Positions 237 to 62,578 of a DNA stretch of 64,000 nucleotides are shown here, piece after piece. The stretch comes from Bacteroidota bacterium (GTDB taxonomy: Bacteria > Bacteroidota > Bacteroidia > Chitinophagales > JADIYW01). The position numbers were made by a program, and so were the translations under genes. How positions within the stretch are numbered: position 1 is the first letter of the stretch; each line of letters opens with the position of its first letter. The notes under the pieces were generated by a model that made no database searches, was not told the DNA's origin, and saw only the letters and a program-made list of their open reading frames with translations. The stretch covers positions 469,923 to 533,922 of the forward strand of contig CAUJCO010000013.1 in assembly GCA_963169645.1 (NCBI GenBank), written 5' to 3'.

Positions 237-373
237 CATCTAAAACAGACTTTCCAGAACGAATAGCATTCCATATTTTTTCTTATTGTAATTACAACCA
301 CAAACTTTAATCTGATAGTATTATCATACTAAAATTGAGCTGTTCTAACAACGGGAAAAGTAAATCCTCTTTA

Positions 374-1018
374 TTACACAAATTTTATTTTTTGTTGTTG
401 AATGATGGCACACAATTCACTTACCATCATGGCGGTAGCACCCCATAAAAATTTACCTTCAATGTCGTAATAGGGAGCCATTAATGTTAATCCCATCGCA
501 CTTTTCATTGGTTTTTCCTTAATTATTCCGGGTTCAAAAAAACGTGTTAATGGGACTTCTAACACATTTGCTACTTCTTTTTGTTCTAACTTTAAGATAG
601 GTGCTGTTTCTAACAAACCCACATACGGATACACCATAAAATTACTTGCGAGAACAAATACTTCCGTTAAATTTCCAATCACATCTACTATATCTTTCTT
701 CACACCTACCTCTTCTTCTGTTTCGCGCAAAGCGGCGTCCAAAATACTCAAATCTGTTTTTTCAATTTTGCCACCCGGAAATGCAATTTGTCCGCTATGA
801 ACACCATTATATATTGGTCGTTCTATAAATAATAAATGCGGCGTATCATTTTTAGGATAAATCAACGATAGCACAGCGCCTTGCTTCGGTTTTAAAATAG
901 GTGGTGCATCCAAATCCGGTTTTAATTTTAAATAAGGTTTTAATAATGCTTGAGCCGACTTGCCCGGAAGTGGTTGTTCAAATGCAATTTTTAAGTCGGC
1001 AGCAAACTGTTTAAACAT
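374..1018 (-). CDS. Nudix hydrolase, CoA pyrophosphatase type
   Basis: Nudix box GGKIEKTDLSILDAALRETEEEVGV. The upstream LLFIERP...SGQIAFPGG motif is typical of the CoA pyrophosphatase subgroup. Confidence 0.8.
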   Translation of the reverse strand: MFKQFAADLKIAFEQPLPGKSAQALLKPYLKLKPDLDAPPILKPKQGAVLSLIYPKNDTPHLLFIERPIYNGVHSGQIAFPGGKIEKTDLSILDAALRETEEEVGVKKDIVDVIGNLTEVFVLASNFMVYPYVGLLETAPILKLEQKEVANVLEVPLTRFFEPGIIKEKPMKSAMGLTLMAPYYDIEGKFLWGATAMMVSELCAIIQQQKIKFV

Positions 1019-2376: not shown

Positions 2377-2380
2377 AACT

Positions 2381-3406
2381 ATGGATATTTTTGAACAAAC
2401 CGAGAACTTACAAAAAGAGGTTCAAGAAACTGTGATTACCGATGCCGAAGCATTAGAAAAATTCCGTATTCGATTTTTAGGAAGTAAAAATATTTTGAAA
2501 GATATTTTTGGTGAGATTAAAAATGTACCAAATGAACGCAAGAAAGAATTTGGTCAATTAGTAAATAAAGTAAAACAAACAGCAGAAGAAAAGTTTGCCG
2601 CCTTACAAGAACAATTTCAACAACAAAATACGACTGCCGAAACAATTGATTTAACCTTACCGGGTGATGTTACCAACTTGGGTGCAAGACATCCGATTCA
2701 AGTTGTAAAAAATCAAATCGTAGACATTTTTAAACGATTAGGTTTTGCCGTGCAAGAAGATAGAGAAATTGAAGACGATTGGCATAATTTTACTGCATTA
2801 AACATGCCGGAAGATCATCCGGCACGCGATATGCAAGACACGTTTTTCATTAATGTAAATCCGGATATTGTATTACGTACGCACACATCATCTGTGCAAG
2901 TACGCACCATGGAAAATCAAAAACCACCTATACGTATTTTATCGCCCGGAAGAGTGTATAGAAACGAAACGATTTCTGCCCGTTCACATTGCTTTTTCCA
3001 TCAAGTAGAAGGCTTGTATATTGATGAAAATGTTTCGTTCGCCGATTTATTGCAAACCTTAGATTTCTTCGTAAAAGAACTATTTGGAAAAGACACTAAA
3101 ATAAAATTACGTCCATCTTATTTTCCATTTACTGAACCAAGTGCCGAAGTAGATGTAACATGCTTCATTTGCGGCGGTAGCGGTTGTACCGTTTGTAAGC
3201 AAAGTGGTTGGGTAGAAATTTTAGGCTGTGGCATGGTGGATCCAAAAGTGTTAGAAAACTGTCAAATAGACACCAAAAAATATGCAGGATTTGCCTTTGG
3301 AATGGGCGTAGAACGAATCACGATGTTGAAATATCAAATAAAAGATATTCGATTATTATCTGAAAATGATACGCGTTTCTTAGAGCAATTTAAATCGGCA
3401 AGATAA
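2381..3406 (+). CDS. pheS: phenylalanine--tRNA ligase alpha subunit
   Basis: Class II aaRS motifs: HPARDMQDTFF, RTHTSSVQVR, GRVYRNE, FPFTEPSAEVD, GFAFGMGVERI. Confidence 0.95.
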   Translation: MDIFEQTENLQKEVQETVITDAEALEKFRIRFLGSKNILKDIFGEIKNVPNERKKEFGQLVNKVKQTAEEKFAALQEQFQQQNTTAETIDLTLPGDVTNLGARHPIQVVKNQIVDIFKRLGFAVQEDREIEDDWHNFTALNMPEDHPARDMQDTFFINVNPDIVLRTHTSSVQVRTMENQKPPIRILSPGRVYRNETISARSHCFFHQVEGLYIDENVSFADLLQTLDFFVKELFGKDTKIKLRPSYFPFTEPSAEVDVTCFICGGSGCTVCKQSGWVEILGCGMVDPKVLENCQIDTKKYAGFAFGMGVERITMLKYQIKDIRLLSENDTRFLEQFKSAR

Positions 3407-15570: not shown

Positions 15571-16539
15571 TTATTCTTCACTAAAAAACTTAAATCGGAG
15601 AGCGGAAATACCACCAATAATGGCCGGAATGATTAGATTAATAAACCAAAGCGTAACCGTAGTAGCAATGATGGTGATAGGATTTTGTACAAATGGAATT
15701 AAGAAAAATGCTGCTACATTATTTCTAAAACCAAAATCAACTAATGCGATGTTAATCGGATTGATGGTTTGCACAAAAAAAATGGCTGCCACTACCATCA
15801 TGGCTGTCAAAAACGGTATTTGAATCCCAAAAAAAGAAAGTAATAAGACAAACTGAACACAATAAATGATATACCGTAAAATAGAATAAACTTCTAACTT
15901 AAGTAAATCTTTGGTTGAGTATAAATCGATAATATGTAAATATCTCGCTGCTTTATCCAAAAGCGGAAAATGAGAAAATTTGGTACTTACAACATCAATA
16001 TTATAATAACAAAAATGAACGGCAATAACCATCAAAATATAAATAAATATAAATGCAGCAGCAAAATACGTATCGGTTTTATCAATTAATAAAACATACA
16101 ACAATAACCCGAATGCTCCAATAGATAAATTAACCACAATTTGTGCCAAACTACCAATAATAGTTGACACTATCGCCTCTTTTCTTTCTGTATTTAATGC
16201 AAAAACCCGACCACCAAATTCACCAATCCGGCTGGGTGTAAACATCGAAAATGTAACGCCAAATAAAATTCCTTCAATCGCTTCTAACCACGAAATAGGA
16301 TGCAAGCGATCAATTAAATATTTCCATTTAATGGCCTCTATACTCCAATTAAGCAACATCAATAAAATAACAGTAAATAACAAATAAAAATTTCCGTGAA
16401 AATTGATCCAGAAATGCGTAATGGCAACATCCATTTTTTCGTTGGAAAATAATTGCTTGTATAACACCATCAACAAACCGCCAAAAATCACCAACTTTAT
16501 CAGGGCGTTTAAGAGTTTATTTTGGAATATTTTTTTCAT
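15571..16539 (-). CDS. polytopic membrane protein, lysylphosphatidylglycerol-synthase-TM / flippase-like domain family (tentative)
   Basis: About 8 TM helices. The size and the PSRIGEFGGR-type loop are reminiscent of UPF0104/LPG_synthase_TM proteins. This is recognition-level evidence only. Confidence 0.5.
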   Translation of the reverse strand: MKKIFQNKLLNALIKLVIFGGLLMVLYKQLFSNEKMDVAITHFWINFHGNFYLLFTVILLMLLNWSIEAIKWKYLIDRLHPISWLEAIEGILFGVTFSMFTPSRIGEFGGRVFALNTERKEAIVSTIIGSLAQIVVNLSIGAFGLLLYVLLIDKTDTYFAAAFIFIYILMVIAVHFCYYNIDVVSTKFSHFPLLDKAARYLHIIDLYSTKDLLKLEVYSILRYIIYCVQFVLLLSFFGIQIPFLTAMMVVAAIFFVQTINPINIALVDFGFRNNVAAFFLIPFVQNPITIIATTVTLWFINLIIPAIIGGISALRFKFFSEE

Positions 16540-16621
16540 GTGAATGCATAAAGATAATAGGTTTCAATAAAATTTCTGAAAGAGAGAAAGATACTGCACG
16601 CTAAATTGTAATTTTACACCA

Positions 16622-17182
16622 ATGGCAACAAAGAAGCAAATCATCCTTGGTATCGATCCCGGAACGCAGGTTACAGGTTACGGGCTAATTTTATCTGACG
16701 GCATATCCATGGAATTATTGGCAATTGGCTGCATACAAACAGAAAAATTTGACGACCATTACGACCGACTTCAATGTATTTTTGATAGAATATTGGAAAT
16801 AATTTTAGCCTACAAACCGACCATCTTAGCTATTGAAGCTCCATTTTTTGGAAAAAATGTGCAATCTATGTTGAAATTGGGAAGAGCACAAGGTATGGCA
16901 ATTGCAGCCGCTTTATCACAAAAAATTCCGATACAAGAATACTCTCCTAAAAAAGTGAAACAAAGTATTACCGGAAATGGAAATGCCGCCAAGGAACAAG
17001 TAGCCGCCATGTTAGGTCATATTTTAAAAACGGATGTGTTACCCAAACAATTAGATGCAACCGATGGTTTGGCGGTGGCGGTGTGCCATCACTTTTCGAT
17101 GCGAGGAATGCCAAAAGGTGGTAAAAAATATTCCGGATGGGAAGCTTTTGCCAAGGAAAATGCAAGCAGAATTGTTAAATAA
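16622..17182 (+). CDS. ruvC: crossover junction endodeoxyribonuclease RuvC
   Basis: ILGIDPGTQVTGYG catalytic Asp motif. Also EAPFFGKNVQS and DATDGLAVAVCH. Confidence 0.95.
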   Translation: MATKKQIILGIDPGTQVTGYGLILSDGISMELLAIGCIQTEKFDDHYDRLQCIFDRILEIILAYKPTILAIEAPFFGKNVQSMLKLGRAQGMAIAAALSQKIPIQEYSPKKVKQSITGNGNAAKEQVAAMLGHILKTDVLPKQLDATDGLAVAVCHHFSMRGMPKGGKKYSGWEAFAKENASRIVK

Positions 17183-17311
17183 TTACATTGACAGCGTGTG
17201 TAACCCTAACAGATTGTTCTATACACTACCTTAGTTTAGGTATTTTTTAAAGTTGACCGAAAATTAACAATTTTATTTAGATTGGTTCTAATTTGAGTCG
17301 TATTTTTGAGT

Positions 17312-17461
17312 ATGCTTAAGTTGCCAATTATACAAAATCAGATATCCGCCGAATTGAATTTGGTTCGTGCTTGCAAATGCGAGTGCGATGGCAAAAAGAA
17401 ATGTTGTAAAAAATACAAACACGGTAAACGGTGCAAATCTTGTCCTAAAAGAAAAGATTAA
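17312..17461 (+). CDS. candidate small ORF encoding a 49-aa Cys/Lys-rich peptide
   Basis: ATG at 17312 to TAA at 17459-17461. Translates to MLKLPIIQNQISAELNLVRACKCECDGKKKCCKKYKHGKRCKSCPKRKD, with 7 Cys and 11 Lys in the last 29 aa. It is below the track's size cutoff, and I have no homology evidence. Confidence 0.4.
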   Translation: MLKLPIIQNQISAELNLVRACKCECDGKKKCCKKYKHGKRCKSCPKRKD

Positions 17462-17596
17462 TTGTTTATCAGAATCACAGATTTATTGTATTAAAAGATT
17501 TCGTAGATTTTATATCTGTGTTATTTATTAAATCATAATATTCGCAGTTCAGACAAAAAACTTACGTCTTACGACTTTGGACTTAAGACTAATTTC

Positions 17597-17604
17597 TATC
17601 TTTG
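17597..17604 (+). promoter_or_regulatory. TAnnTTTG -7 promoter box immediately upstream of cysS
   Basis: TATCTTTG ends 4 nt before the cysS ATG at 17609. Confidence 0.4.
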
Positions 17605-17608
17605 CCAC

Positions 17609-19099
17609 ATGTCAACACTTCATATACAAAATACACTTACACGACAAAAAGAAAAATTTGAACCCATCAATCCACCTTATGTTGGATTGTATTGCTGTGG
17701 TCCAACTGTATATTCTGATGTTCACTTAGGAAATACACGCACATTTATCTCTTTTGATTTAGTATATCGATATCTCAAATTTTTAGGTTATAAAGTAAGA
17801 TATGTCCGCAACATCACCGATGCTGGACATCTTACCAATGAAGCTGGTGAAGGTAAAAACCGCATGGAAGACCAAGCTAAATTAGAGAAATTGGAGCCGA
17901 TGGAAATTGTACAAAAATACACAGTCGGGTTTCACGATGTATGTCGTATTTTTAATATTTCACCACCAACCATAGAACCAACAGCAACAGGTCATATTGT
18001 GGAACAAATTGAAATGGCTCAACAACTCATCCAAAATGGCGTTGCGTACGAATCCAATGGCAGTGTATATTTTGACGTGCGTGCCTATAACGAAAAAGGA
18101 TATAATTATGGCATTTTATCCGGAAGAAATATTGACGAACTGATTGCAGGCTATCGCGATTTAGATGGACAAGAGGAAAAAAGAAATGCCATCGACTTTG
18201 CCTTATGGAAAAAAGCATCTCCGGAACACATTATGCAGTGGAACTCGCCGTGGGGCAAAGGGTTTCCGGGTTGGCATTTAGAGTGCTCTGTGATGAGTAC
18301 TAAATACCTTGGCAAACAATTTGACATCCATGCCGGCGGAATGGACTTAAAATTCCCGCATCACGAATGCGAAATAGCACAAAACGTGGGTGCTTGCGGC
18401 GAACAACCGGTGCGCTATTGGATGCACACCAATATGCTTAATTTTAATGGACAAAAGATGAGTAAATCTCTCGGAAACTCCATTTTACCGATGCAATTTA
18501 TTACCGGTGATCATCCGTTATTAGACAAACCTTACTCTGCCATGACGGTGCGTTTCTTATTTATGCAATCGCATTATTCATCCGAGTTAGACATCACCAT
18601 AAAAGGGTTACAAGATGCCGAAAAAGGATTGCGAAAGTTGATGAACGCTGCAAAATACCTTAAAGAATTACAATTTGATTCCATTACAGTAGAAGAAAAA
18701 CAAGATAAATGGATACGAGATTTATGTGCCACCTGTAAAGAAGTAATGGATGATGATTTTAATGCACCCAAATTAGTAGCAACTTTGCACGAATTGGCTA
18801 CACAAATCAATATCTATTATAACAACAGCAAGAAAATAAACAATCTGTCTGATGTTACATACAATAGTTTATTGGCTACATACAATGGTTTTTTATTCGA
18901 TGTATTAGGATTGATGGAAGAAGAACAATCCGGAGACAACACCGCTTTAGATAAAGCCATGCAATTAATTATTGATATACGCAAACAAGCACGTGACAAT
19001 AAAGACTGGACGACTTCCGATAAAATTAGAGATGCATTGAAAGAAGCAAATATTAGCATAAAAGATGGAAAAGATGGAACTACGTATGAGATTAATTAG
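17609..19099 (+). CDS. cysS: cysteine--tRNA ligase
   Basis: Class I motifs HLGNTRT (HIGH) and KMSKSLGN (KMSKS), plus GGMDLKFPHHECE. Confidence 0.95.
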   Translation: MSTLHIQNTLTRQKEKFEPINPPYVGLYCCGPTVYSDVHLGNTRTFISFDLVYRYLKFLGYKVRYVRNITDAGHLTNEAGEGKNRMEDQAKLEKLEPMEIVQKYTVGFHDVCRIFNISPPTIEPTATGHIVEQIEMAQQLIQNGVAYESNGSVYFDVRAYNEKGYNYGILSGRNIDELIAGYRDLDGQEEKRNAIDFALWKKASPEHIMQWNSPWGKGFPGWHLECSVMSTKYLGKQFDIHAGGMDLKFPHHECEIAQNVGACGEQPVRYWMHTNMLNFNGQKMSKSLGNSILPMQFITGDHPLLDKPYSAMTVRFLFMQSHYSSELDITIKGLQDAEKGLRKLMNAAKYLKELQFDSITVEEKQDKWIRDLCATCKEVMDDDFNAPKLVATLHELATQINIYYNNSKKINNLSDVTYNSLLATYNGFLFDVLGLMEEEQSGDNTALDKAMQLIIDIRKQARDNKDWTTSDKIRDALKEANISIKDGKDGTTYEIN

Positions 19100-19118
19100 T
19101 CGATGGCCGATGGATACT

Positions 19119-20123
19119 ATGCAACGGTTTACAAAATATATGCTATGTACAAAATTCTCGATACTATTCTTTGTATGCATTGTAATAGCTACATCTTGCA
19201 AAACAACAAAAAAAGAAAACAACTCAACAGAAACAACATCGACTATTACTCGTCCAAGTTTCTCTTCAGATTCAACTTATCTTTTTATACAACAACAAGT
19301 AGAAATGGGACCACGTGTTCCGGGAACTGTCGCACAAACTAAATGTGCTCAATATTTTGAACAAAAATTAAAAAATTACGGTGCTACGGTACAATTACAA
19401 AAAACAACCGTAACTATTTATAATGGAAAAAATGTTCCTTGTATAAATGTAATCGCCTCGTATAATCCAGGAATAAAAAGAAGACTTTTATTATGCACCC
19501 ATTGGGATTCACGACCATTTGCAGACCAAGGCGATAGTGCCGTAGCAGCACCTATTTTAGCCGCAGATGACGGGGCAAGTGGTGCAGCCGTATTGTTAGA
19601 GGTTGCCCGACAACTACAACAAAAAAATCCGGAGATTGGAGTAGATTTGGTATTTTTCGATGTGGAAGATTACGGGCAACCGGAATATGATTTAGACCAG
19701 AAACAAGGTGATTTTTATTGTTTAGGTACACAGTATTGGTGTAAAAATCCGCATGTACCTAATTACAAAGCAGAAAATGGCATTTTATTAGATATGGTAG
19801 GTGCCAAAGGTGCTACTTTCACTTTTGAAGGCGTATCTATGCTGTATGCACCGCAATACATGAAGCAAGTTTGGCTATTTGCCGAACAATTAGGTTATGG
19901 TAATTTCTTTTTGCGAGAAAATACCGAGCAAATTATTGATGACCATTATTACGTAAATACCATAGCAAAAATTCCGACCATTGATATCATCAACCGAACC
20001 AGACGCACCGCATCCGGCTTTGGTGCACATTGGCACACGCATGATGATAATATGGGAATTATAGATAAATTGACATTACAAGCAGTAGGTGAAACAGTAT
20101 TGGCATCCATCTATCATTTTTAG
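19119..20123 (+). CDS. glutaminyl-peptide cyclotransferase-like M28 family lipoprotein
   Basis: HWDSRPFADQ, DDGASGAAVLLEVAR and FFDVEDYG (M28 metal ligands). Lipoprotein signal FFVCIVIATSC. The ORF opens at 19065 but would then overlap cysS, so Met19 (19119) or Met16 (19110) is preferred. Confidence 0.75.
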   Translation: MQRFTKYMLCTKFSILFFVCIVIATSCKTTKKENNSTETTSTITRPSFSSDSTYLFIQQQVEMGPRVPGTVAQTKCAQYFEQKLKNYGATVQLQKTTVTIYNGKNVPCINVIASYNPGIKRRLLLCTHWDSRPFADQGDSAVAAPILAADDGASGAAVLLEVARQLQQKNPEIGVDLVFFDVEDYGQPEYDLDQKQGDFYCLGTQYWCKNPHVPNYKAENGILLDMVGAKGATFTFEGVSMLYAPQYMKQVWLFAEQLGYGNFFLRENTEQIIDDHYYVNTIAKIPTIDIINRTRRTASGFGAHWHTHDDNMGIIDKLTLQAVGETVLASIYHF

Positions 20124-39032: not shown

Positions 39033-39039
39033 CATTGCT

Positions 39040-40179
39040 ATGAATATTGGAATTGTATGTTATCCTACCTTTGGCGGCAGTGGCGTAGTGGCTACTGAGT
39101 TGGGAAAAGGATTGGCACAAAAAGGACATAAAGTGCATTTTGTTACCTACAAAGAACCGGCACGCTTATTAGATACATTTAATGAAAATATCTTTTTTCA
39201 CGAGGTGAGTTTAAATGATTATCCATTATTTGATTATGCACCGTATGAAACAGCATTAGCCAGTAAATTAGTAGATGTGGCACTCAATGCTAAATTAGAT
39301 ATATTTCACGTGCATTATGCCATTCCACATGCTTCTGCAGCTTACATGGCACGGCAAATATTATTACAACAAGGAATAAATGTTCCGGTTATTACCACCT
39401 TGCACGGCACAGATATTACATTGGTTGGAAGAGATGCCACCTATGAACCCGTTGTAACCTATTCCATCAATCAATCGTGTGGCGTAACGGCCGTTTCCGA
39501 AAGTTTAAAGCACGATACTTTTACCAATTTCAAGATTAAAAATGAGATTGAAGTTATTCCTAACTTTATTGATTTTTCCAGATTTAAAAAAAGCAATAAA
39601 GATCATTTTAAAAAAGCCATTGCACCCAATGGCGAAAAAATAATTGTACATACATCTAACTTTAGAAAAGTAAAAAGAGTAGAAGACGTCGTACATGTTT
39701 TTTGCAAGGTTTCAGAAGCCATACCTGCAAAATTATTGATGATTGGAGATGGGCCGGAGCGACAAAATGCTGAAAAATTAGTGCGTTCGTTGTGTTCCAA
39801 TTTAGACGTGCGTTTTTTAGGTAAACAAGAAGCAGTAGAAGAATTATTAGCTATTGCAGATGTGTTTCTATTGCCATCAGAAAGTGAGAGTTTTGGATTG
39901 GCTGCATTAGAAGCGATGGCTTGCGAAGTGCCGGTGGTTTCTTCAAATGCAGGCGGCATTCCGGAAGTAAATATTGATGGAGAAACCGGCTATTTATTAA
40001 ATGTGGGCGATGTAAACGGCATGGCAGAAAAAACACTTTTGCTATTGCAAGACGAAGAGAAAATGGAACTATTCAGAAAGAATGCATTTGCGCAAGCACA
40101 AAAGTTTGATATATCCAATATCTTACCACAATACGAAGCATTTTACGAAAAAATTAAAGCAAGTGGTACTTGCAAATAA
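39040..40179 (+). CDS. bshA: N-acetyl-alpha-D-glucosaminyl L-malate synthase (bacillithiol biosynthesis glycosyltransferase, GT4)
   Basis: The N-terminus MNIGIVCYPTFGGSGVVATELGKGLAQKGHKVHFV is characteristic of BshA. GT4 C-terminal motif ESFGLAALEAMACEVPVV. Confidence 0.8.
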   Translation: MNIGIVCYPTFGGSGVVATELGKGLAQKGHKVHFVTYKEPARLLDTFNENIFFHEVSLNDYPLFDYAPYETALASKLVDVALNAKLDIFHVHYAIPHASAAYMARQILLQQGINVPVITTLHGTDITLVGRDATYEPVVTYSINQSCGVTAVSESLKHDTFTNFKIKNEIEVIPNFIDFSRFKKSNKDHFKKAIAPNGEKIIVHTSNFRKVKRVEDVVHVFCKVSEAIPAKLLMIGDGPERQNAEKLVRSLCSNLDVRFLGKQEAVEELLAIADVFLLPSESESFGLAALEAMACEVPVVSSNAGGIPEVNIDGETGYLLNVGDVNGMAEKTLLLLQDEEKMELFRKNAFAQAQKFDISNILPQYEAFYEKIKASGTCK

Positions 40180-40440
40180 GCCTAAATTTACTTTACGCAC
40201 ATACCACAAATGTGGAATTTTATGCTGAGGCGTTGTGCGGTTTAATTTACTATTCTATTTTCTTTATTTAATTATTTGTCCAATTGAACTTTTTGTCTCT
40301 TTTTTTTCATAGTCGAAAAATAGTCTAAAAATATAAGCTGTTGAATAATTATAATAAACACACATCAAGTCATTTATGAGCTTCCTTTTTTCTAGAGAAT
40401 GATATATATCCGAAGCATTTACCTGTACAAGCTACAAATG

Positions 40441-41265
40441 TTATGGTTCTATTTTCTCATTTCTATAAAACCAATACAACAAAAAAGCACTAATGCCGGT
40501 AAAAAAATGCCACAAGGCATGTCCTTGGTAAATGGATATCGGATTACAAGCTATTTTTTTTAAGTCTATGGTGCGAAGCACAAATGCACCTATCAAAAAA
40601 AGAAGACTTAAAATAAGTGTCGTGAAATGATAACGCTGTTTATTTCTTACATAATTCAATGCTGTAAACCCAATTAAAACTACTATTAATAACGGTAATA
40701 AAATAAAGCTGCTAACCACTAAATGTAGTTTTATAAATGCAACGATACAAACTATCAATAGTAAAATATAATAAATAGGACGTATTCGCTTTGGCTCAAA
40801 ATATCGGAAAATACTAATGCCAATTAACACAATGCAAATACTATACGTTGCATTCATATCCAACCGTTGCCCTATCCAAGAAAGTGATGCATGAAAAAAT
40901 GAACTTCCCATACACAAGTAGATGAGGCAACTGCCAAATAAAATGGTGATAGCCGGAAACTGTTGTATCGCATTAATTGGAGTTGCTGTTTTGTTTTTAA
41001 CATCGTGTATTCCAATCAACAAAACAATACAGCCTAAAAAGAAATACATTAAGTTGGAATACGTATTCATTGTTTGTCGAAAAAAATGCGTTGATTTATC
41101 TAACTCACAATACTCTGCAGTAAGTACTGATTTACTTTGTTGTATTTGCTGCCAATATTGACCATCATAATTGACATTCAAATAAAGATAAAGCAGCAAT
41201 AAAAACAACGTTGCTACTGCTGATAAACTATATATTTTGTAAATCTGTACTTTAGACATATACAA
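40441..41265 (-). CDS. 7-TM membrane protein with alkaline-ceramidase-like motifs (tentative)
   Basis: Ordered motifs NTYSNLMYF, SSFFHASL, QRLDMNATY and HALWHFFTG resemble the N-x-SN / FH / D / HxxWH pattern of the ceramidase (aPHC/ACER) family. Confidence 0.5.
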   Translation of the reverse strand: MYMSKVQIYKIYSLSAVATLFLLLLYLYLNVNYDGQYWQQIQQSKSVLTAEYCELDKSTHFFRQTMNTYSNLMYFFLGCIVLLIGIHDVKNKTATPINAIQQFPAITILFGSCLIYLCMGSSFFHASLSWIGQRLDMNATYSICIVLIGISIFRYFEPKRIRPIYYILLLIVCIVAFIKLHLVVSSFILLPLLIVVLIGFTALNYVRNKQRYHFTTLILSLLFLIGAFVLRTIDLKKIACNPISIYQGHALWHFFTGISAFLLYWFYRNEKIEP

Positions 41266-51767: not shown

Positions 51768-51804
51768 TTCTAACGAATTAATGTTCCATATTCCATCAAA
51801 GCAC

Positions 51805-52779
51805 TTATGATTTATTGCTTATTTGTTGTGCAATTTTATTGATTGTTTCTTCTAATGGAATAAAATGATAGTTTAATTGTTGTTTTATTTTTTCGTTTGA
51901 ATATTCAAAATGTTCCAAAGATACGGTCATATTTTCTTTGGTTAAACCACGCTTACGCGATGTGAAAGCCGAAGCCAACCAATCTACACATAGAAATATA
52001 TTTCCTATTATCTTATTCAAAGCACGTTTAGGTGCCGGTACCTGAAAAGTAGAAGCAATCGTTTCAAAATAATTTTTAAATGTAGTATTTGTACCTATTA
52101 AGATAAAACGTTCGTTGGTGATAGTGGAATTCATAAGTTGTATGCAACAATTGACGACATCTTCCACATCAATGAAACCATTGGTTCCGTTGGAATAAAA
52201 GGGCATTTTTTGAGCTCGAATTTTATTAAAAACGCGCATCGTTGCTTTATTTTCTTTACCATATCCCAAAATAATTCCGGGATTGACAATCACCGCATCT
52301 AATCCTTCTTGAATACCACGCCATACTTCTCGCTCAGCCAACATTTTGGTGATGCCATAGTGTGTCGTCCATTCATTCTTTTCCCATTTGGTTTCTTCGG
52401 TAATCAATTCATTCGGTCGTCCGCCAATGGCAGCAATCGAACTAATGTGTACTATCTTTTTAATTCCTTTATCAAGTGCCACATTCACCACATTTGCAGT
52501 GCCTTCAATATTGCACTTATACATGGCATTGTAATACGAACTATCATAACCAATAACTGCAGCACTGTGGTATATCTTATCGATACCATCGAAAGCAATT
52601 TCTAAAGATGAAATATCTAAAATATCTGCTTCAACAATTTCAATTTTATCTTTAATAGCATACAGGTGTGATATATCTGAATTAGCACGTTTAATGATGC
52701 GTACAACTTCACCGTTTGCAACAAGTTGTTTGACCAATTCGCCGCCTAAGAAACCGGATGCACCTGTAACCAAAATCAT
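51805..52779 (-). CDS. NAD-dependent epimerase/dehydratase (extended SDR) family protein
   Basis: Rossmann motif ILVTGASGFLG and catalytic YGITK (YxxxK). Confidence 0.8.
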   Translation of the reverse strand: MILVTGASGFLGGELVKQLVANGEVVRIIKRANSDISHLYAIKDKIEIVEADILDISSLEIAFDGIDKIYHSAAVIGYDSSYYNAMYKCNIEGTANVVNVALDKGIKKIVHISSIAAIGGRPNELITEETKWEKNEWTTHYGITKMLAEREVWRGIQEGLDAVIVNPGIILGYGKENKATMRVFNKIRAQKMPFYSNGTNGFIDVEDVVNCCIQLMNSTITNERFILIGTNTTFKNYFETIASTFQVPAPKRALNKIIGNIFLCVDWLASAFTSRKRGLTKENMTVSLEHFEYSNEKIKQQLNYHFIPLEETINKIAQQISNKS

Positions 52780-59857: not shown

Positions 59858-62578
59858 TTAATTAATAATTCCTGTAATTTTCTCTTTATTATACTGCAAA
59901 ATAAATGCCACAAAATATCCTTGTGAGCGAACGACACTTAAAACGTCTTTTGCTTTCTCCAAATTATCAAAGTTTCCGACTCTATATATGTATTTATTAT
60001 ACGCATTTACTTCTTCAATTGTTCCAAACTGTTCAAATTCTGGGAATTTAACATTCTTTTCGTCAAGGCTAGAAATTTGAACTTTATAATACACTTCCGG
60101 TAATTCTATCGTATTTTTTTTAGGAGCCGGTTGTGTTGCAGGTGCATTTGTGTTTACACTTTTCGGTGTAGAGCTTATTTCTGTTGATGAAGGTTTCTTA
60201 TCGACAACCGATTTATTTGCAACCGGAACACCGGTTTCTTTAATTGTTGGAATTGGTTTAATCGTTGGTTGTTCTATTAATGTTTTTATCGTGTCTAATT
60301 GGTGTTGTACTTCAACAGGAACAACTACATTATTGGGTGTTGGTTTTACATCAGGAATAGATGCTATAACAGGTGCTGCAATTTCTTCTTTTGTAGCATG
60401 CTCTTTGATGTCTTCTAAAATAACTTGTTCTATCTTTTTATCTATTTTTTTAGATTTTGGACTGTCATTTGTTTTCTCTACTTTTTGGGTGTTTATCATA
60501 TTGGCAGCAAGTTGAGCCTCTTCATCAACCATAGGTGTTTCTTTAGCTGTCTCTACAACTGTTGTTTTCGTCGTTGCTAAAACGCTTTCCTGTTTCTTTT
60601 CTTCTGTTACCAACATAGTTTTTACGGTATCTTTTAGTGTTACTATCGGTGTTACTTTAGGAACAGCCGATGTCGTATTGGTTGGTATATTGGTTGGTGC
60701 AGTTGGTGTATCTATTTTATTATTCAACACAATAGTTGATGGTATATTATTTTCTTTGTATACTCTGTTTTCGGTTAACTTAAATTTATTACCTGTCAAC
60801 AGATAATCTTTCACTTTTACATTATTGCGTTCTAATCCTAATGTGGTAAGTTCATCGGTGATTTTAAATTGCGGTGTTTCGAAAATAATTTTATAATTGT
60901 TGTTTAATAACAATCGAATTTCAAATCTACCAGAACTATCTATTTCTAATTCTCTTAGTTTTTGCGTTGCGTAGTTCACCATGCGCATTTTTACTTTTGC
61001 CGGTTTATTGGTGCTTGCATCTATCACTTTACCGGTGAACACAATAAAATTATCTAACGATATGGCATTGATGTTGTTATTTTTTATTGCAAATTTTGCA
61101 TCTGGAACCAAGTAATTTTCTACGACAACAGAATCTCCGCTTAGCTTACCATTGGTATTTACTTTGATACTACTTGTTCTGTAGTTATCATTTGAGAATT
61201 TCACTGTAAACGTTTTATTTTTATCTACATTAAATGTAGCTCTACCATTATTATCTGTAACACCTTCATATATTTTATTGCCATTTTCCAGTACTTGCAC
61301 CATTGTATAACTCATGGATTGTTCTGTCAGCGAATCAAAGGCATGTGCAATTAATTTTAAATTAAACGGAATAAATCTGTAAATATCAAAGCCACCATTT
61401 CCGCCTATTCTGTCCGAAACAACATAGCCTGTTTTAATAGCATCATCATATATAATTCCGATATCATCGCCGGCAGAATTAACGGGTGCCGGTTGCATTT
61501 CTACACCTTCCCAAGCTCCGGAAACAGCTGTTGCTTTAAAGATGTCATATCCGCCAAAACCACCATCTCTGTTCGAAGAAAAGTAAAGTTCATTTTCTGC
61601 TTTATTTTGTACCACAAATGGGCTTATCTCATCAGAAGTGGTATTTAGCAGTTTACCTAAATTTGTAGGCTTGCTCCATTTTCCATTTTCCATTTTACTT
61701 TGCCAAATATCAAAACCACCAAGACCGCCCACTTGATTGGATACAAAGAAAAGCGTAGTTCCATTGGCGTTATATGACGGATTTTTGAGCGTTGCATTCG
61801 GTATATTGTGCGGAAATGGTTGAACGTTTAAGAAATTTCCGCCTAAATTTTCTGCAAAATAAAGTTGGTCGTGTGGTTTATTTTGTTTTGCAGTTGCTGG
61901 ATCGTATGCTGAAAAGACAACAAAGTTTCCGTCTTGTGTGTAAGACAAACCGGTAATTATTAATTTTCCGGCACCACTTTTATAGGCAATTTGTGGTTTA
62001 GCGAAATTATCAAAAGAGCGTACAATTTGTTTAATATCATTGGTTGCATTTTTATCATCTGATTTGGTGGTGATATAAATCGGATTGGTACGCAATACTG
62101 CTATTGATTTTTCGTCATCTTTGGTGTTGTATGTATAATTTTCCAATTTATAATTGGCAGTCTGTGAAGATGCTTTTAAAACTGTTTCGCATTGATTGGC
62201 TAAACCCATCACTTTGCTTACATCGCCTGTTTGTGCAGCATACATCAAATAAGCATCTAAAGCTTTTTGATAATTTCCCATTAATTGATTGGTGTATGCA
62301 TAATTATATAAATTGGTTCTTGAGGTATAGATTAGTTGGCTTTCCTTATTATACCATAACATGGCGGTTTCGTAGTCTTTCTTTTTCACATACAGCTCTG
62401 CAATTCTAAATGCATCTTGTGGATCTCTATTTGTGCTGTAATATTGATCTTGATAATATTGAATAACTTTATCCAGTTCGCCTGTAGCAATCAATTTTCC
62501 TATATAGATGGCATCCCATTTTTTTGCAAATGAGACACTCAATATCAACATAAAACTTAAAAAGAAGAATTTTTTCAT
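59858..62578 (-). CDS. large envelope protein: TPR + PD40 (TolB-like beta-propeller) repeats + CarboxypepD_reg-like domains + P/T/K-rich linker + C-terminal SPOR domain
   Basis: Signal peptide from Met at 62578. TPR-like helical N-terminus. PD40 signatures GGLGGFDIWQS, GGFGGYDIFKA and GGNGGFDIYRF. SPOR-like C-terminus YYKVQISSL...YIYRVGNFDNLEKAKDVLSVVRSQGYFVAFI. Confidence 0.7.
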   Translation of the reverse strand: MKKFFFLSFMLILSVSFAKKWDAIYIGKLIATGELDKVIQYYQDQYYSTNRDPQDAFRIAELYVKKKDYETAMLWYNKESQLIYTSRTNLYNYAYTNQLMGNYQKALDAYLMYAAQTGDVSKVMGLANQCETVLKASSQTANYKLENYTYNTKDDEKSIAVLRTNPIYITTKSDDKNATNDIKQIVRSFDNFAKPQIAYKSGAGKLIITGLSYTQDGNFVVFSAYDPATAKQNKPHDQLYFAENLGGNFLNVQPFPHNIPNATLKNPSYNANGTTLFFVSNQVGGLGGFDIWQSKMENGKWSKPTNLGKLLNTTSDEISPFVVQNKAENELYFSSNRDGGFGGYDIFKATAVSGAWEGVEMQPAPVNSAGDDIGIIYDDAIKTGYVVSDRIGGNGGFDIYRFIPFNLKLIAHAFDSLTEQSMSYTMVQVLENGNKIYEGVTDNNGRATFNVDKNKTFTVKFSNDNYRTSSIKVNTNGKLSGDSVVVENYLVPDAKFAIKNNNINAISLDNFIVFTGKVIDASTNKPAKVKMRMVNYATQKLRELEIDSSGRFEIRLLLNNNYKIIFETPQFKITDELTTLGLERNNVKVKDYLLTGNKFKLTENRVYKENNIPSTIVLNNKIDTPTAPTNIPTNTTSAVPKVTPIVTLKDTVKTMLVTEEKKQESVLATTKTTVVETAKETPMVDEEAQLAANMINTQKVEKTNDSPKSKKIDKKIEQVILEDIKEHATKEEIAAPVIASIPDVKPTPNNVVVPVEVQHQLDTIKTLIEQPTIKPIPTIKETGVPVANKSVVDKKPSSTEISSTPKSVNTNAPATQPAPKKNTIELPEVYYKVQISSLDEKNVKFPEFEQFGTIEEVNAYNKYIYRVGNFDNLEKAKDVLSVVRSQGYFVAFILQYNKEKITGIIN

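What the first reader, a model, noticed from the sequence alone, without database searches (positions are those of the whole stretch)
17312..17608. Cys/Lys-rich 49-codon small ORF directly upstream of cysteinyl-tRNA synthetase
Seen in sequence: an unannotated ORF (17312-17461) encodes MLKLPIIQNQISAELNLVRACKCECDGKKKCCKKYKHGKRCKSCPKRKD. It has 7 Cys codons, including CKCEC and CC clusters, within 29 codons. It ends 147 nt before cysS on the same strand. The spacer contains inverted repeats: cacagat...atctgtg at about 17472-17517 and gtctta...taagac at about 17565-17587. Established knowledge: several aaRS and amino-acid operons, such as E. coli pheST with pheM, are controlled by leader peptides enriched in the cognate residue. 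Inference: this may be a Cys-sensing leader ORF for cysS. Alternatively it could be an independent small metal-binding or metallothionein-like peptide, or a RiPP-like precursor with a hydrophobic leader and a Cys-rich core. Two caveats apply. At 49 codons it is long for an attenuation leader. A TAnnTTTG box at 17597-17604 also suggests cysS has its own promoter.
Basis: partly seen in the sequence, partly recalled or inferred. Interest (0 to 1): 0.55.

Follow-up and report, generated by a model that had tools for sequence, protein, structure and literature searches.

The report
Conserved Cys/Lys microprotein, not cysS leader
The 49-codon Cys/Lys-rich ORF is a real gene with its own promoter, belonging to a widespread and so far undescribed Bacteroidota small-protein family with an invariant KKCCKKYKKGKRCKxCP tail, and it sits next to cysS only by lineage-specific accident.

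Summary

**It is a real gene.**
- Orthologues keep the frame. The window versus L001 comparison gives 14 synonymous against 4 non-synonymous changes (dN/dS about 0.04).
- It belongs to a family of at least 603 protein clusters, 42-60 aa long, in four Bacteroidota classes.
- N-termini vary, but the C-terminal motif CC-x8-C-x2-C-P sits in a tail of about +10 charge.
- No Pfam, NCBIfam, PDB or literature match was found.

**The cysS-leader reading fails.**
- Family members lie in at least seven other neighbourhoods, several with a convergent downstream gene.
- Close relatives with the same ruvC-cysS synteny lack the ORF.
- cysS keeps a conserved TAnnTTTG box 4 nt before its ATG whether or not the ORF is present.
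- The 147-nt spacer is unconserved and folds no better than shuffles.

**The gene has its own promoter.** A TAnnTTTG box lies 3 nt before the ATG, which suggests a leaderless mRNA. Just upstream is a 21-bp dyad (TATTTAGA-N5-TCTAAATA) that accompanies the gene in most neighbourhoods.

**Function is inferred only.** The best guess is a Cys4 metal-binding, polycationic microprotein. It resembles the SecA metal-binding domain and the FhuF C-terminus but is not demonstrably related to either.

The parts
17312..17461 (+). Microprotein gene: 49 codons plus stop. The start is ATG 17312, not the upstream TTG 17306.
   Evidence: Orthologues of the same length and frame occur in L001, L003, L007, L008, L037, L092, L095, L096, L098 and L113-115. 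dN/dS is 0.04 for window versus L001.
17396..17446 (+). Codons 29-45, KKCCKKYKHGKRCKSCP. This is the family-defining CC-x8-C-x2-C-P polybasic motif and the putative tetrathiolate metal site.
   Evidence: Invariant columns are K29, C31, C32, C41, C44 and P45 in 113 sequences. Among 240 members, CC-x8-C occurs in 224, P follows the last Cys in 240/240, and the +4 position is Y, F or W in 216 of 224 and His in 8. In the last 22 codons pN is 0-0.05 in most orthologue pairs (up to 0.13 against L037) while pS is 0.5-1.0.
17301..17308 (+). TATTTTTG, the sigma-A -7 box of the microprotein gene, 3 nt before the ATG. It predicts a leaderless mRNA.
   Evidence: Conserved in all orthologues, 3-4 nt before the ATG. 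The box occupies -12 to -5 relative to the TSS in Flavobacterium (PMC9723704).
17274..17294 (.). 21-bp dyad TATTTAGA-TTGGT-TCTAATTT (consensus TAtTTrGA-N5-TCTAAATA). It overlaps the -33 region and spacer of the microprotein promoter and looks like an operator.
   Evidence: The 20-nt pattern occurs only upstream of family genes in the window and the 94 loci held at the time. TCTAA[AT]T-N3-10-TAnnTTT[GA] gave 24 hits in 812 kb, 20 of them directly upstream of family genes. The dyad is in about 20 of 31 distinct upstream regions, with 5-8 of 8 arm positions palindromic.
17227..17248 (+). Short hairpin (TACCT-N6-AGGTA) followed by T6, after the ruvC stop. Possibly the ruvC terminator; weak.
   Evidence: Conserved in position. 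L003 and L007 have CTAAT-N4-ATTAG followed by GTATTTTTT instead. The energy is not significant against shuffles.
17462..17546 (+). Non-conserved spacer after the microprotein stop.
   Evidence: Orthologues differ greatly in length and sequence. Fold z-scores range from -1.6 to +1.0 with no common structure. No terminator-like site was found and no Rfam match.
17547..17596 (+). cysS promoter-upstream module: an A-run followed by 3-4 tandem ~7-nt units (CTYACKA).
   Evidence: The same module lies directly upstream of cysS in relatives with and without the microprotein gene (L002, L004, L005, L009, L010, L012).
17597..17604 (+). TATCTTTG, the -7 box of cysS, 4 nt before its ATG. It predicts a TSS at the A of ATG 17609.
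   Evidence: Conserved (TAYCTTTG) in 14 of the 16 related loci listed, including ones that lack the small ORF. Positional rule from PMC9723704.
17609..19099 (+). cysS (cysteinyl-tRNA synthetase). It is a neighbour, not part of the microprotein unit.
   Evidence: Pfam tRNA-synt_1e E=4.7e-96.
16622..17182 (+). ruvC, the upstream neighbour.
   Evidence: Pfam RuvC E=1.1e-45.

Best explanation
The ORF is an autonomous, translated microprotein gene, not a regulatory leader.

Shown:
- It is conserved and under strong purifying selection.
- It belongs to a large Bacteroidota family with a variable, mildly acidic N-terminus and an invariant C-terminal KKCCKK[YF]KKGKRCK.CP motif.
- Family members sit as stand-alone genes in many unrelated neighbourhoods.
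- cysS keeps an identical promoter module whether or not the gene is present.

Inferred from sequence:
- The gene is transcribed from its own sigma-A promoter, whose TAnnTTTG box abuts the ATG, giving a leaderless mRNA.
- The promoter overlaps a conserved 8-5-8 dyad that is probably the site of a dimeric regulator.

Inferred function:
- The four invariant Cys (CC-x8-C-x2-C) form a single tetrathiolate metal site, binding Zn/Fe or a [2Fe-2S] cluster.
- That knuckle sits in a tail of about +10 charge, which would dock on a polyanionic partner such as the ribosome or RNA, DNA, or an acidic membrane surface. This is the way the SecA-type metal-binding domain works.
For: Real gene:
- Orthologues of identical length occur in 13 or more related contigs.
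- Window versus L001 gives 14 synonymous and 4 non-synonymous differences, dN/dS 0.04. In the C-terminal 22 codons pN is 0-0.05 in most pairs while pS is 0.5-1.

Family:
- 211 representatives at 50% identity and 603 clusters at 90%.
- Named hosts are Fibrella, Solitalea, Taibaiella, Sphingobacterium and Saprospiraceae.

Independence from cysS:
- Other neighbourhoods are polA>X>ribE, gyrB<X, peptidase<X>rSAM, CoA-transferase<X><glutaminase, udk>X><MFS and ETF<X><gldH.
- L002, L009, L010 and L012 keep ruvC-cysS only 61-157 nt apart with no ORF.
- The cysS promoter module is the same in both kinds of locus.

Own promoter:
- The TAnnTTTG box lies 3-4 nt before the ATG in the window clade and at most 8 nt in most other members.
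- The dyad is specific to family genes.
- In the window, 6 of about 12 detectable TAnnTTTG promoters lie 3-7 nt from an ATG.

Metal and polyanion binding:
- Four Cys, the following Pro and the Lys two residues before the CC pair are invariant; the other Lys and the Gly/Arg are about 90% conserved, and the +4 position is aromatic in 216 of 224 members, with His in the other 8.
- C-part charge is +10.3 against -1.5 for the N-part.
- The anatomy parallels FhuF C-C-x10-C-x2-C, which binds 2Fe-2S (PMC8068687).
- It also parallels the SecA MBD CXCX8C[HC] with a KKYK loop, which binds Zn/Fe and ribosomes (bioRxiv 10.1101/613315).
Against: - There are no expression, translation or metal-binding data.
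- AlphaFold2 gives no confident fold (pLDDT 55 and 54).
- Profile comparisons with FhuF_C and the SecA MBD are not significant (probability 4% and 1.8%).
- None of 113 members hit SEC-C in Pfam, and only one hit FhuF_C, at E=0.13. The functional analogy therefore rests on motif anatomy alone.
- The transcription start sites are predicted, not measured.
- Leaderless mRNAs are rare in the Bacteroidota studied so far: 5.5% in F. psychrophilum and 3.7% with 5'UTR under 10 nt in B. thetaiotaomicron.
- Read-through from the small gene into cysS cannot be excluded, because no terminator was found.
- About a third of family upstream regions lack the dyad.
Confidence: 0.6

Rival explanations
1. Cys-sensing leader peptide. 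Ribosome stalling at the Cys codons under low Cys-tRNA charging would switch an attenuator in the 147-nt spacer and raise cysS transcription or translation.
For: - The ORF is on the same strand, 147 nt upstream of cysS, with 7 Cys codons.
- No terminator was found for the small gene, so read-through is possible.
Against: - Family members lie in at least 7 neighbourhoods without cysS, several followed by a convergent gene.
- Relatives with 77-91% identical CysS and the same synteny lack the ORF.
- The cysS -7 box lies 4 nt before its ATG and is conserved with or without the ORF, so those transcripts carry no leader.
- The spacer is not conserved and is no more structured than shuffles.
- Rfam gives no T-box or other match.
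- Lys, Tyr, Gly, Arg and Pro are as constrained as Cys, and dN/dS is 0.04.
- Cys number varies from 5 to 7 within the clade.
Confidence: 0.03
2. RiPP precursor or secreted cationic Cys-rich antimicrobial peptide. The N-terminal part would be a leader and the Cys/Lys part a core that is modified or exported.
For: - The architecture is two-part, with a variable or acidic N-terminus and a cationic Cys-rich C-terminus.
- The Fibrella member is followed by a radical-SAM gene.
Against: - No maturase, protease or transporter recurs next to the gene in any of the neighbourhoods examined.
- The Fibrella rSAM carries a HemN_C domain, typical of a housekeeping HemW-type enzyme, and is not seen elsewhere.
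- The pattern is the reverse of RiPPs: the 'core' is nearly invariant and the 'leader' hypervariable.
- No signal peptide or double-glycine leader is evident.
- There are no PADLOC or PHROG hits and no viral copies.
Confidence: 0.07
3. Metallothionein-like metal buffer or store, acting by sequestering Zn, Cu or Cd with no macromolecular partner.
For: - The protein is Cys-rich (4-8 Cys in about 54 aa) and small.
- The operator-like dyad could belong to a metal-responsive repressor.
Against: - Only 4 Cys are invariant, and 45 of 240 members have just 4, enough for one site rather than a cluster.
- There is no Pfam metallothionein hit.
- No ArsR/SmtB-type regulator or metal-efflux gene lies nearby in any neighbourhood.
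- The extreme, conserved Lys content and the invariant aromatic, Gly and Pro are unexplained by simple sequestration.
Confidence: 0.12
4. A chance ORF in AT-rich intergenic DNA, not a gene.
For: Many 30-60-codon ORFs occur by chance in this window. Neither the protein-family libraries nor AlphaFold2 recognise it.
Against: - There are hundreds of homologues with an invariant 17-residue motif.
- Synonymous sites are saturated while replacement changes are near zero in the motif.
- The promoter is conserved.
Confidence: 0.01

Closest known systems
SecA-type metal-binding domain (SEC-C motif, CXCX8C[HC]; also in YecA and YchJ)
   Same: - A mini-domain of about 20 residues with two Cys pairs separated by an 8-residue Lys-rich loop.
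- The loop contains a conserved aromatic (KKYK).
- SecA's binds Zn/Fe and docks on ribosomes and SecB (bioRxiv 10.1101/613315; E. coli sequence).
- Read backwards, the family motif (C-x2-C-RKGKKYKK-CC) nearly matches the SecA-type pattern as I recall it (C-x-C-GSGKKYKK-CC); the E. coli sequence actually read here is CPCGSGKKYKQCH.
   Different: - The Cys pairs are in the opposite order (CC-x8-CxxC against CxC-x8-CC/CH).
- The conserved Ser is missing.
- No PF02810 hit in 113 members, and hhalign aligns only KKYK at probability 1.8%.
- This protein is free-standing, not a tail on a larger protein.
FhuF C-terminal [2Fe-2S] motif (PF11575, C-C-x10-C-x2-C)
   Same: - Vicinal CC, then a loop, then C-x2-C.
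- Basic residues before the CC and an aromatic 3 residues after it: RRTCCQRYR in E. coli FhuF against KKKCCKKYK here.
- A few family members have x9 or x10 loops.
   Different: - The loop is 8 residues in 93% of members.
- The FhuF N-terminal helical domain is absent.
- Only 1 of 113 members touches PF11575, at E=0.13, and hhalign probability is 4%.
- Cluster binding is untested.
Attenuation leader peptides upstream of aaRS and amino-acid genes (E. coli pheM and trpL; D. deserti 10-aa Cys-Cys leader of cysS)
   Same: A small ORF rich in the cognate residue on the same strand, just upstream of cysS. It may be translated from a leaderless start, as in D. deserti (PMC4007540).
   Different: - 49 codons long, with protein-level purifying selection.
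- No attenuator structure.
- cysS has its own promoter.
- Linkage to cysS is absent in most of the family and in close relatives.
bL38 and similar lineage-specific basic microproteins of Bacteroidia
   Same: A Bacteroidota-restricted protein of about 50 residues, overlooked by annotation. bL38 (5.6 kDa) was only recognised as ribosomal through cryo-EM (PMC11851116).
   Different: bL38 is encoded in the bL28-bL33 operon, whereas this gene is monocistronic in variable neighbourhoods. There is no evidence yet of ribosome association.
SCIFF/ranthipeptide-type Cys-rich RiPP precursors (from my own knowledge)
   Same: About 45-55 aa with a Cys-rich C-terminal half.
   Different: Those always sit next to a radical-SAM maturase. 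Here no maturase recurs and the Cys pattern differs.

Membership tests
Ribosome-mediated attenuation leader peptide for cysS | The ORF lies within the 5' leader of the regulated gene's mRNA, with no promoter in between. | tested here: not met
   A conserved TAYCTTTG box sits 4 nt before the cysS ATG in loci with and without the ORF. The box maps to -12 to -5 (PMC9723704), so the predicted TSS is the A of the cysS ATG. The TSS is predicted, not measured.
Ribosome-mediated attenuation leader peptide for cysS | Alternative terminator/antiterminator hairpins overlapping or following the ORF end. | tested here: not met
   No terminator-like site lies in 17462-17608. Fold z-scores are +0.39 and +0.43. 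The spacer varies in length and sequence among orthologues.
Ribosome-mediated attenuation leader peptide for cysS | Linkage to the regulated gene is conserved wherever the leader occurs. | tested here: not met
   At least seven other neighbourhoods lack cysS. The ORF is absent from ruvC-cysS in L002, L009, L010 and L012.
Ribosome-mediated attenuation leader peptide for cysS | Constraint falls on the regulatory codons rather than on the whole peptide sequence. | tested here: not met
   dN/dS is 0.04. Lys, Tyr/Phe, Gly, Arg and Pro are invariant or nearly so alongside Cys.
Ribosome-mediated attenuation leader peptide for cysS | cysS expression responds to Cys-tRNA charging through translation of the ORF. 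| not testable with these tools
   This needs a reporter, Term-seq or Ribo-seq under cysteine limitation.
T-box or other known cis-regulatory RNA of aaRS genes | Match to an Rfam covariance model upstream of cysS. | tested here: not met
   cmscan of 16500-18200 at E<=10 returned only 4 chance-level hits, none of them a T-box or riboswitch.
FhuF_C [2Fe-2S] domain (PF11575) | C-C-x10-C-x2-C spacing. | tested here: not met
   CC-x8-C occurs in 224 of 240 members, x9 in 10 and x10 in 6. The window protein has x8.
FhuF_C [2Fe-2S] domain (PF11575) | Significant profile similarity. | tested here: not met
   One of 113 members hits at E=0.13. hhalign probability is 4% against an enterobacterial FhuF C-terminal alignment of low diversity.
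FhuF_C [2Fe-2S] domain (PF11575) | Binds a [2Fe-2S] cluster through the four Cys. | not testable with these tools
   This needs UV-vis, EPR or Mossbauer spectroscopy on purified protein.
SecA-like metal-binding domain (SEC-C, PF02810) | CXCX8C[HC] motif with a conserved Ser and an aromatic residue. | tested here: not met
   The family has CC-x8-CxxC, which is the mirror order. An aromatic is present but the conserved Ser is not. Only 3 of 224 members contain C.C-x8-C[CH] anywhere.
SecA-like metal-binding domain (SEC-C, PF02810) | Significant profile similarity. | tested here: not met
   No PF02810 hit among 113 members at E<=10. hhalign probability is 1.8%, aligning only KKYK.
Bacterial metallothionein (SmtA/BmtA type) | Many Cys (about 9 or more) forming a metal-thiolate cluster, and a Pfam match. 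| tested here: not met
   Members have 4-8 Cys, of which only 4 are invariant. There is no metallothionein family hit.
RiPP precursor | Adjacent maturase or transporter genes, with a conserved leader and a variable core. | tested here: not met
   No recurrent neighbour was found. The C-terminal 'core' is invariant and the N-terminus variable.
Ribosomal protein bL38 (DUF4295) | Encoded downstream of bL28-bL33, with a DUF4295 match. | tested here: not met
   The neighbourhoods differ and there is no Pfam hit (PMC11851116 abstract).
Bacteroidota sigma-A promoter (for the microprotein gene) | TAnnTTTG -7 box, with a TTTG-like -33 element about 19-21 nt upstream. | tested here: met
   TATTTTTG lies at 17301-17308. 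A TTTA/TTTG element within the dyad lies 21 nt upstream, and the arrangement is conserved in orthologues and other family members. Promoter activity and the TSS are not testable here.

The most novel reading that the evidence does not exclude
This would be a previously undescribed, Bacteroidota-wide leaderless microprotein. Its invariant CC-x8-C-x2-CP site would be a free-standing iron or [2Fe-2S]/Zn knuckle in a polylysine tail. It would act as a metal- or redox-responsive factor that docks on the ribosome, RNA or the nucleoid. It would be controlled by a dedicated, equally conserved 8-5-8 dyad operator and an unidentified regulator. Together that would be a new small regulatory module of the phylum.
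Probability: 0.25. Interest if true: 0.75.

Novelty: new variant of a known kind. Interest (0 to 1): 0.5.

Why it matters
- It removes a tempting but wrong annotation: a Cys-rich ORF upstream of cysS is not necessarily a leader peptide.
- It defines a conserved small-protein family of hundreds of clusters across Chitinophagia, Saprospiria, Sphingobacteriia and Cytophagia. The family has no entry in Pfam, NCBIfam or the PDB, and no match in the searched literature.
- The 17-residue motif is as invariant as that of a core cellular component.
- The gene carries its own operator-like promoter element, which gives two direct experimental handles: the metal and partner of the peptide, and the regulator that binds the dyad.
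- It also hints that leaderless transcription may be far more common in this Chitinophagales lineage than in the Bacteroidota studied so far.

Tried and rejected
- **Family libraries.** Pfam, NCBIfam, PHROGs and PADLOC scans of the peptide and relatives gave nothing significant.
- **Solved structures.** A PDB profile search returned only a chance hit at E=2.
- **Structure prediction.** Two AlphaFold2 runs, on the window protein with 113 sequences and on P0213 with 63, gave pLDDT 55 and 54. I did not run fold searches because the models are meaningless.
- **Known RNAs.** Rfam at a permissive threshold found no cis-regulatory RNA.
- **Viral origin.** The viral contig scan found no relatives.
- **Literature.** A search for the motif strings found no papers, and general Cys-rich/Lys-rich Bacteroidota small-protein terms found nothing relevant.
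- **bL38.** Considered and rejected, because it sits in a different operon.
- **Longer homologues.** Those of 80-276 aa have no Pfam domain upstream of the motif and are probably over-extended ORF calls.
- **Weak window hit.** A Cys/basic tblastn hit at 61080-61139(-) lies out of frame with the 906-aa ORF there and is noise.
- **FhuF_C search.** The last protein-database search returned only enterobacterial fragments, so the profile used for hhalign had low diversity.
Full report
**1. Observation**

The ORF is exactly as described. It runs from ATG 17312 to TAA 17459-17461 and encodes 49 residues with 7 Cys. Upstream lies ruvC (16622-17182). Downstream, after a 147-nt spacer, lies cysS (17609-19099). 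The TATCTTTG box is at 17597-17604.

The two inverted repeats exist at 17476-17482/17514-17520 and 17566-17571/17584-17589. They are unremarkable. One search lists eighteen inverted pairs of at least 6 nt in the 438-nt region. The spacer folds no better than dinucleotide shuffles, with z = +0.39 and +0.43.

CysS relatives place the window in an uncultured Chitinophagales lineage.

**2. The ORF is a real gene**

An orthologue of the same length lies between ruvC and cysS in L001, L003, L007, L008, L037, L092, L095, L096, L098 and L113-115. L006 also has it but is cut at the contig end.

Window versus L001 differs at 14 synonymous and 4 non-synonymous sites (dN/dS 0.04). In the last 22 codons the synonymous sites are near saturation (pS 0.5-1.0), while pN is 0-0.05 in most pairs and reaches 0.13 against L037. 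The DNA alignment shows third-position changes inside the ORF and a collapse of conservation right after the stop codon.

**3. It belongs to a large, undescribed family**

A single-sequence search found proteins of 50-56 aa with unrelated N-termini but the same C-terminus, KKKCCKKYKHGKRCKSCPKG. Profile searches found 211 representatives at 50% identity with E<=1e-3 and 603 clusters at 90% identity.

Every source name is 'hypothetical protein', apart from one evidently spurious JGI label. The named hosts are all Bacteroidota:
- Fibrella (Cytophagia)
- Solitalea and Sphingobacterium (Sphingobacteriia)
- Taibaiella (Chitinophagia)
- Saprospiraceae and Ca. Parvibacillus

In 240 members the mean length is 54 aa. 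CC-x8-C-x2-C occurs in 224 (x9 in 10, x10 in 6). Pro follows the last Cys in all 240. Cys number ranges from 4 to 8. The N-part carries -1.5 net charge and the C-part +10.3. The consensus is K-K-C-C-K-K-[YF]-K-K-G-K-R-C-K-[SK]-C-P. Only four of the window protein's seven Cys are family-invariant.

No Pfam, NCBIfam, PHROG, PADLOC or PDB match exists. The motif strings occur in no searchable paper. There are no viral copies.

**4. It is not tied to cysS**

Family members occur in these other neighbourhoods:
- polA > X > 191-aa gene > ribE (L081, L088, L102)
- gyrB < X > (L083)
- S8 peptidase < X > HemN-like rSAM (L084)
- CoA-transferase < X > < glutaminase (L086)
- udk > X > < MFS (L089)
- CoA-transferase < X > < MFS (L101, L104, L105, L108, L109, L111)
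- ETF < X > < gldH (L093)

In several of them the next gene is convergent, so there is nothing downstream to regulate.

Within the window's own clade, relatives with the same synteny (LPG-synthase-like membrane protein, ruvC, cysS) lack the ORF. These are L002, L009, L010 and L012, with 77-91% identical CysS. Their ruvC-cysS gap is only 61-157 nt and holds no remnant. L004 carries a different 176-aa ORF at that site.

The roughly 64 nt in front of cysS are the same with or without the ORF: an A-run, 3-4 heptad units and TAYCTTTG 4 nt before the ATG. In F. psychrophilum the sigma-A box occupies -12 to -5 (PMC9723704). That places the predicted cysS TSS on the A of its ATG, which leaves no leader RNA on which an attenuator could act. 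Rfam finds no T-box or other element.

**5. It has its own promoter**

TATTTTTG (17301-17308) lies 3 nt before the ATG. It is 3-4 nt away in all clade members and at most 8 nt in most other family members. This suggests a leaderless mRNA.

Leaderless promoters seem common in this genome. Of about 12 long ORFs in the window with a TAnnTTTG within 80 nt upstream, six have it 3-7 nt from the ATG.

Immediately upstream lies a 21-bp dyad, TATTTAGA-TTGGT-TCTAATTT (17274-17294; consensus TAtTTrGA-N5-TCTAAATA).
- The 20-nt pattern occurs once in the window and only upstream of family genes in the 94 loci held at the time.
- The composite TCTAA[AT]T-N3-10-TAnnTTT[GA] occurs 24 times in 812 kb of fetched DNA, 20 of them directly before family genes in different neighbourhoods.
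- About 20 of 31 distinct upstream regions carry it, and it is a perfect 8/8 palindrome in L095 and L098.

The left arm overlaps the -33 TTTG-like element. The better-conserved right arm has no known sigma-A role. I read the dyad as the site of a dimeric regulator, which is an inference.

A 5-bp hairpin followed by T6 after ruvC (17227-17248) may terminate ruvC. It is conserved in position, and two subclades use different stems, but it is energetically weak.

**6. What the protein probably does**

This section is inferred. Four invariant Cys, with an invariant Pro, a near-invariant Gly and an aromatic residue, form a metal-site signature rather than a codon-usage signal.

Two known mini-domains have the same anatomy.
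- **FhuF** binds a [2Fe-2S] cluster through C-C-x10-C-x2-C (PMC8068687). The E. coli sequence RRTCCQRYRLPDVQQCGDC compares with KKKCCKKYKHGKRCKSC here.
- **The SecA-type metal-binding domain**, CXCX8C[HC], has the sequence CPCGSGKKYKQCH. It binds Zn or Fe and docks on ribosomes and SecB.

The family motif read backwards (C-x2-C-RKGKKYKK-CC) almost reproduces the SecA-type motif as I recall it (C-x-C-GSGKKYKK-CC).

Neither relationship is statistically supported. hhalign gives 4% and 1.8%, and Pfam hits are absent or marginal. AlphaFold2 gives no fold. I therefore claim analogy, not membership.

The most likely mechanism is a single metal-thiolate knuckle that organises a polylysine tail for binding a polyanionic partner such as the ribosome or RNA, DNA, or an acidic membrane. 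The variable N-terminus would supply lineage-specific contacts. Several subfamilies carry a recurrent [FY]x[AL]LP[IV][IV]Q motif there, and the window protein has LPIIQ at residues 4-8.

**7. Rivals**

- The leader-peptide model is contradicted on every comparative test, despite a genuine precedent in D. deserti (PMC4007540).
- A RiPP or antimicrobial precursor is unlikely. No maturase or transporter recurs, and the conservation pattern is inverted.
- A metallothionein-like buffer is possible but does not explain the invariant polybasic scaffold, and only four Cys are conserved.
- A chance ORF is excluded.

**8. Verdict**

The headline interpretation is rejected. What is there is a member of a new, widely conserved Bacteroidota microprotein family with its own promoter and operator-like element.

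Confidence that it is an autonomous protein-coding gene unrelated to cysS control is about 0.9. Confidence in the metal-knuckle and polyanion-binding mechanism is about 0.4. Interest is moderate (0.5): the family is new and sharply defined, but its function is still only inferred.

Noticed in passing
window 17547-17596; same position in L002, L004, L005, L009, L010, L012: Directly upstream of the cysS -7 box lies an A-run followed by 3-4 tandem ~7-nt units (CTYACKA; CTCACTA x4 in L010; GACyaTC in L005). The module is conserved in relatives with and without the small ORF. It may be an upstream promoter element or a regulator site for cysS.
   Followed up: partly
window, promoters of ORFs at 373-1018(-), 2380-3406(+), 39039-40179(+), 40440-41259(-), 51804-52779(-), and cysS: Six of about 12 long ORFs with a detectable TAnnTTTG box have it only 3-7 nt before the ATG. 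This suggests a high share of leaderless mRNAs in this Chitinophagales genome. The reported shares are 5.5% leaderless mRNAs in F. psychrophilum and about 3.7% of 5'UTRs shorter than 10 nt in B. thetaiotaomicron.
   Followed up: partly
window 17274-17294; L083 5944-5963; L086 4949-4968; L093 4955-4974; L095, L098 and others: A 21-bp dyad, TAtTTrGA-N5-TCTAAATA, accompanies the microprotein gene across unrelated neighbourhoods and orders. The regulator and any wider regulon are unknown.
   Followed up: partly
L004 2322-2852: In one close relative (88% identical CysS) the ruvC-cysS gap holds a different 176-aa ORF with a lipoprotein-like N-terminus (MRFLLPFFCFILLTSC) in place of the microprotein gene. 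The site appears to tolerate insertions.
   Followed up: no
L002 and L009 (both MAG STL-BAC17): One MAG holds two contigs, each with ruvC-cysS and each CysS 91% identical to the window's. This suggests a mixed bin of two strains or a duplication.
   Followed up: no
window 17227-17248: A short hairpin followed by T6 lies after ruvC. L003 and L007 have a different but equivalent stem (CTAAT/ATTAG) at the same place. It may be a weak intrinsic terminator.
   Followed up: partly
window 19065-19099: The M28 peptidase-like ORF (19065-20123) overlaps the end of cysS by 35 nt if its first ATG is used. The same overlap is called in L092 and L113-115.
   Followed up: no
P0213 (Sphingobacterium allocomposti, L089 5001-5177): One source (JGI) names this 58-aa family member 'tRNA U34 2-thiouridine sy...'. 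This is almost certainly an annotation-transfer error.
   Followed up: no
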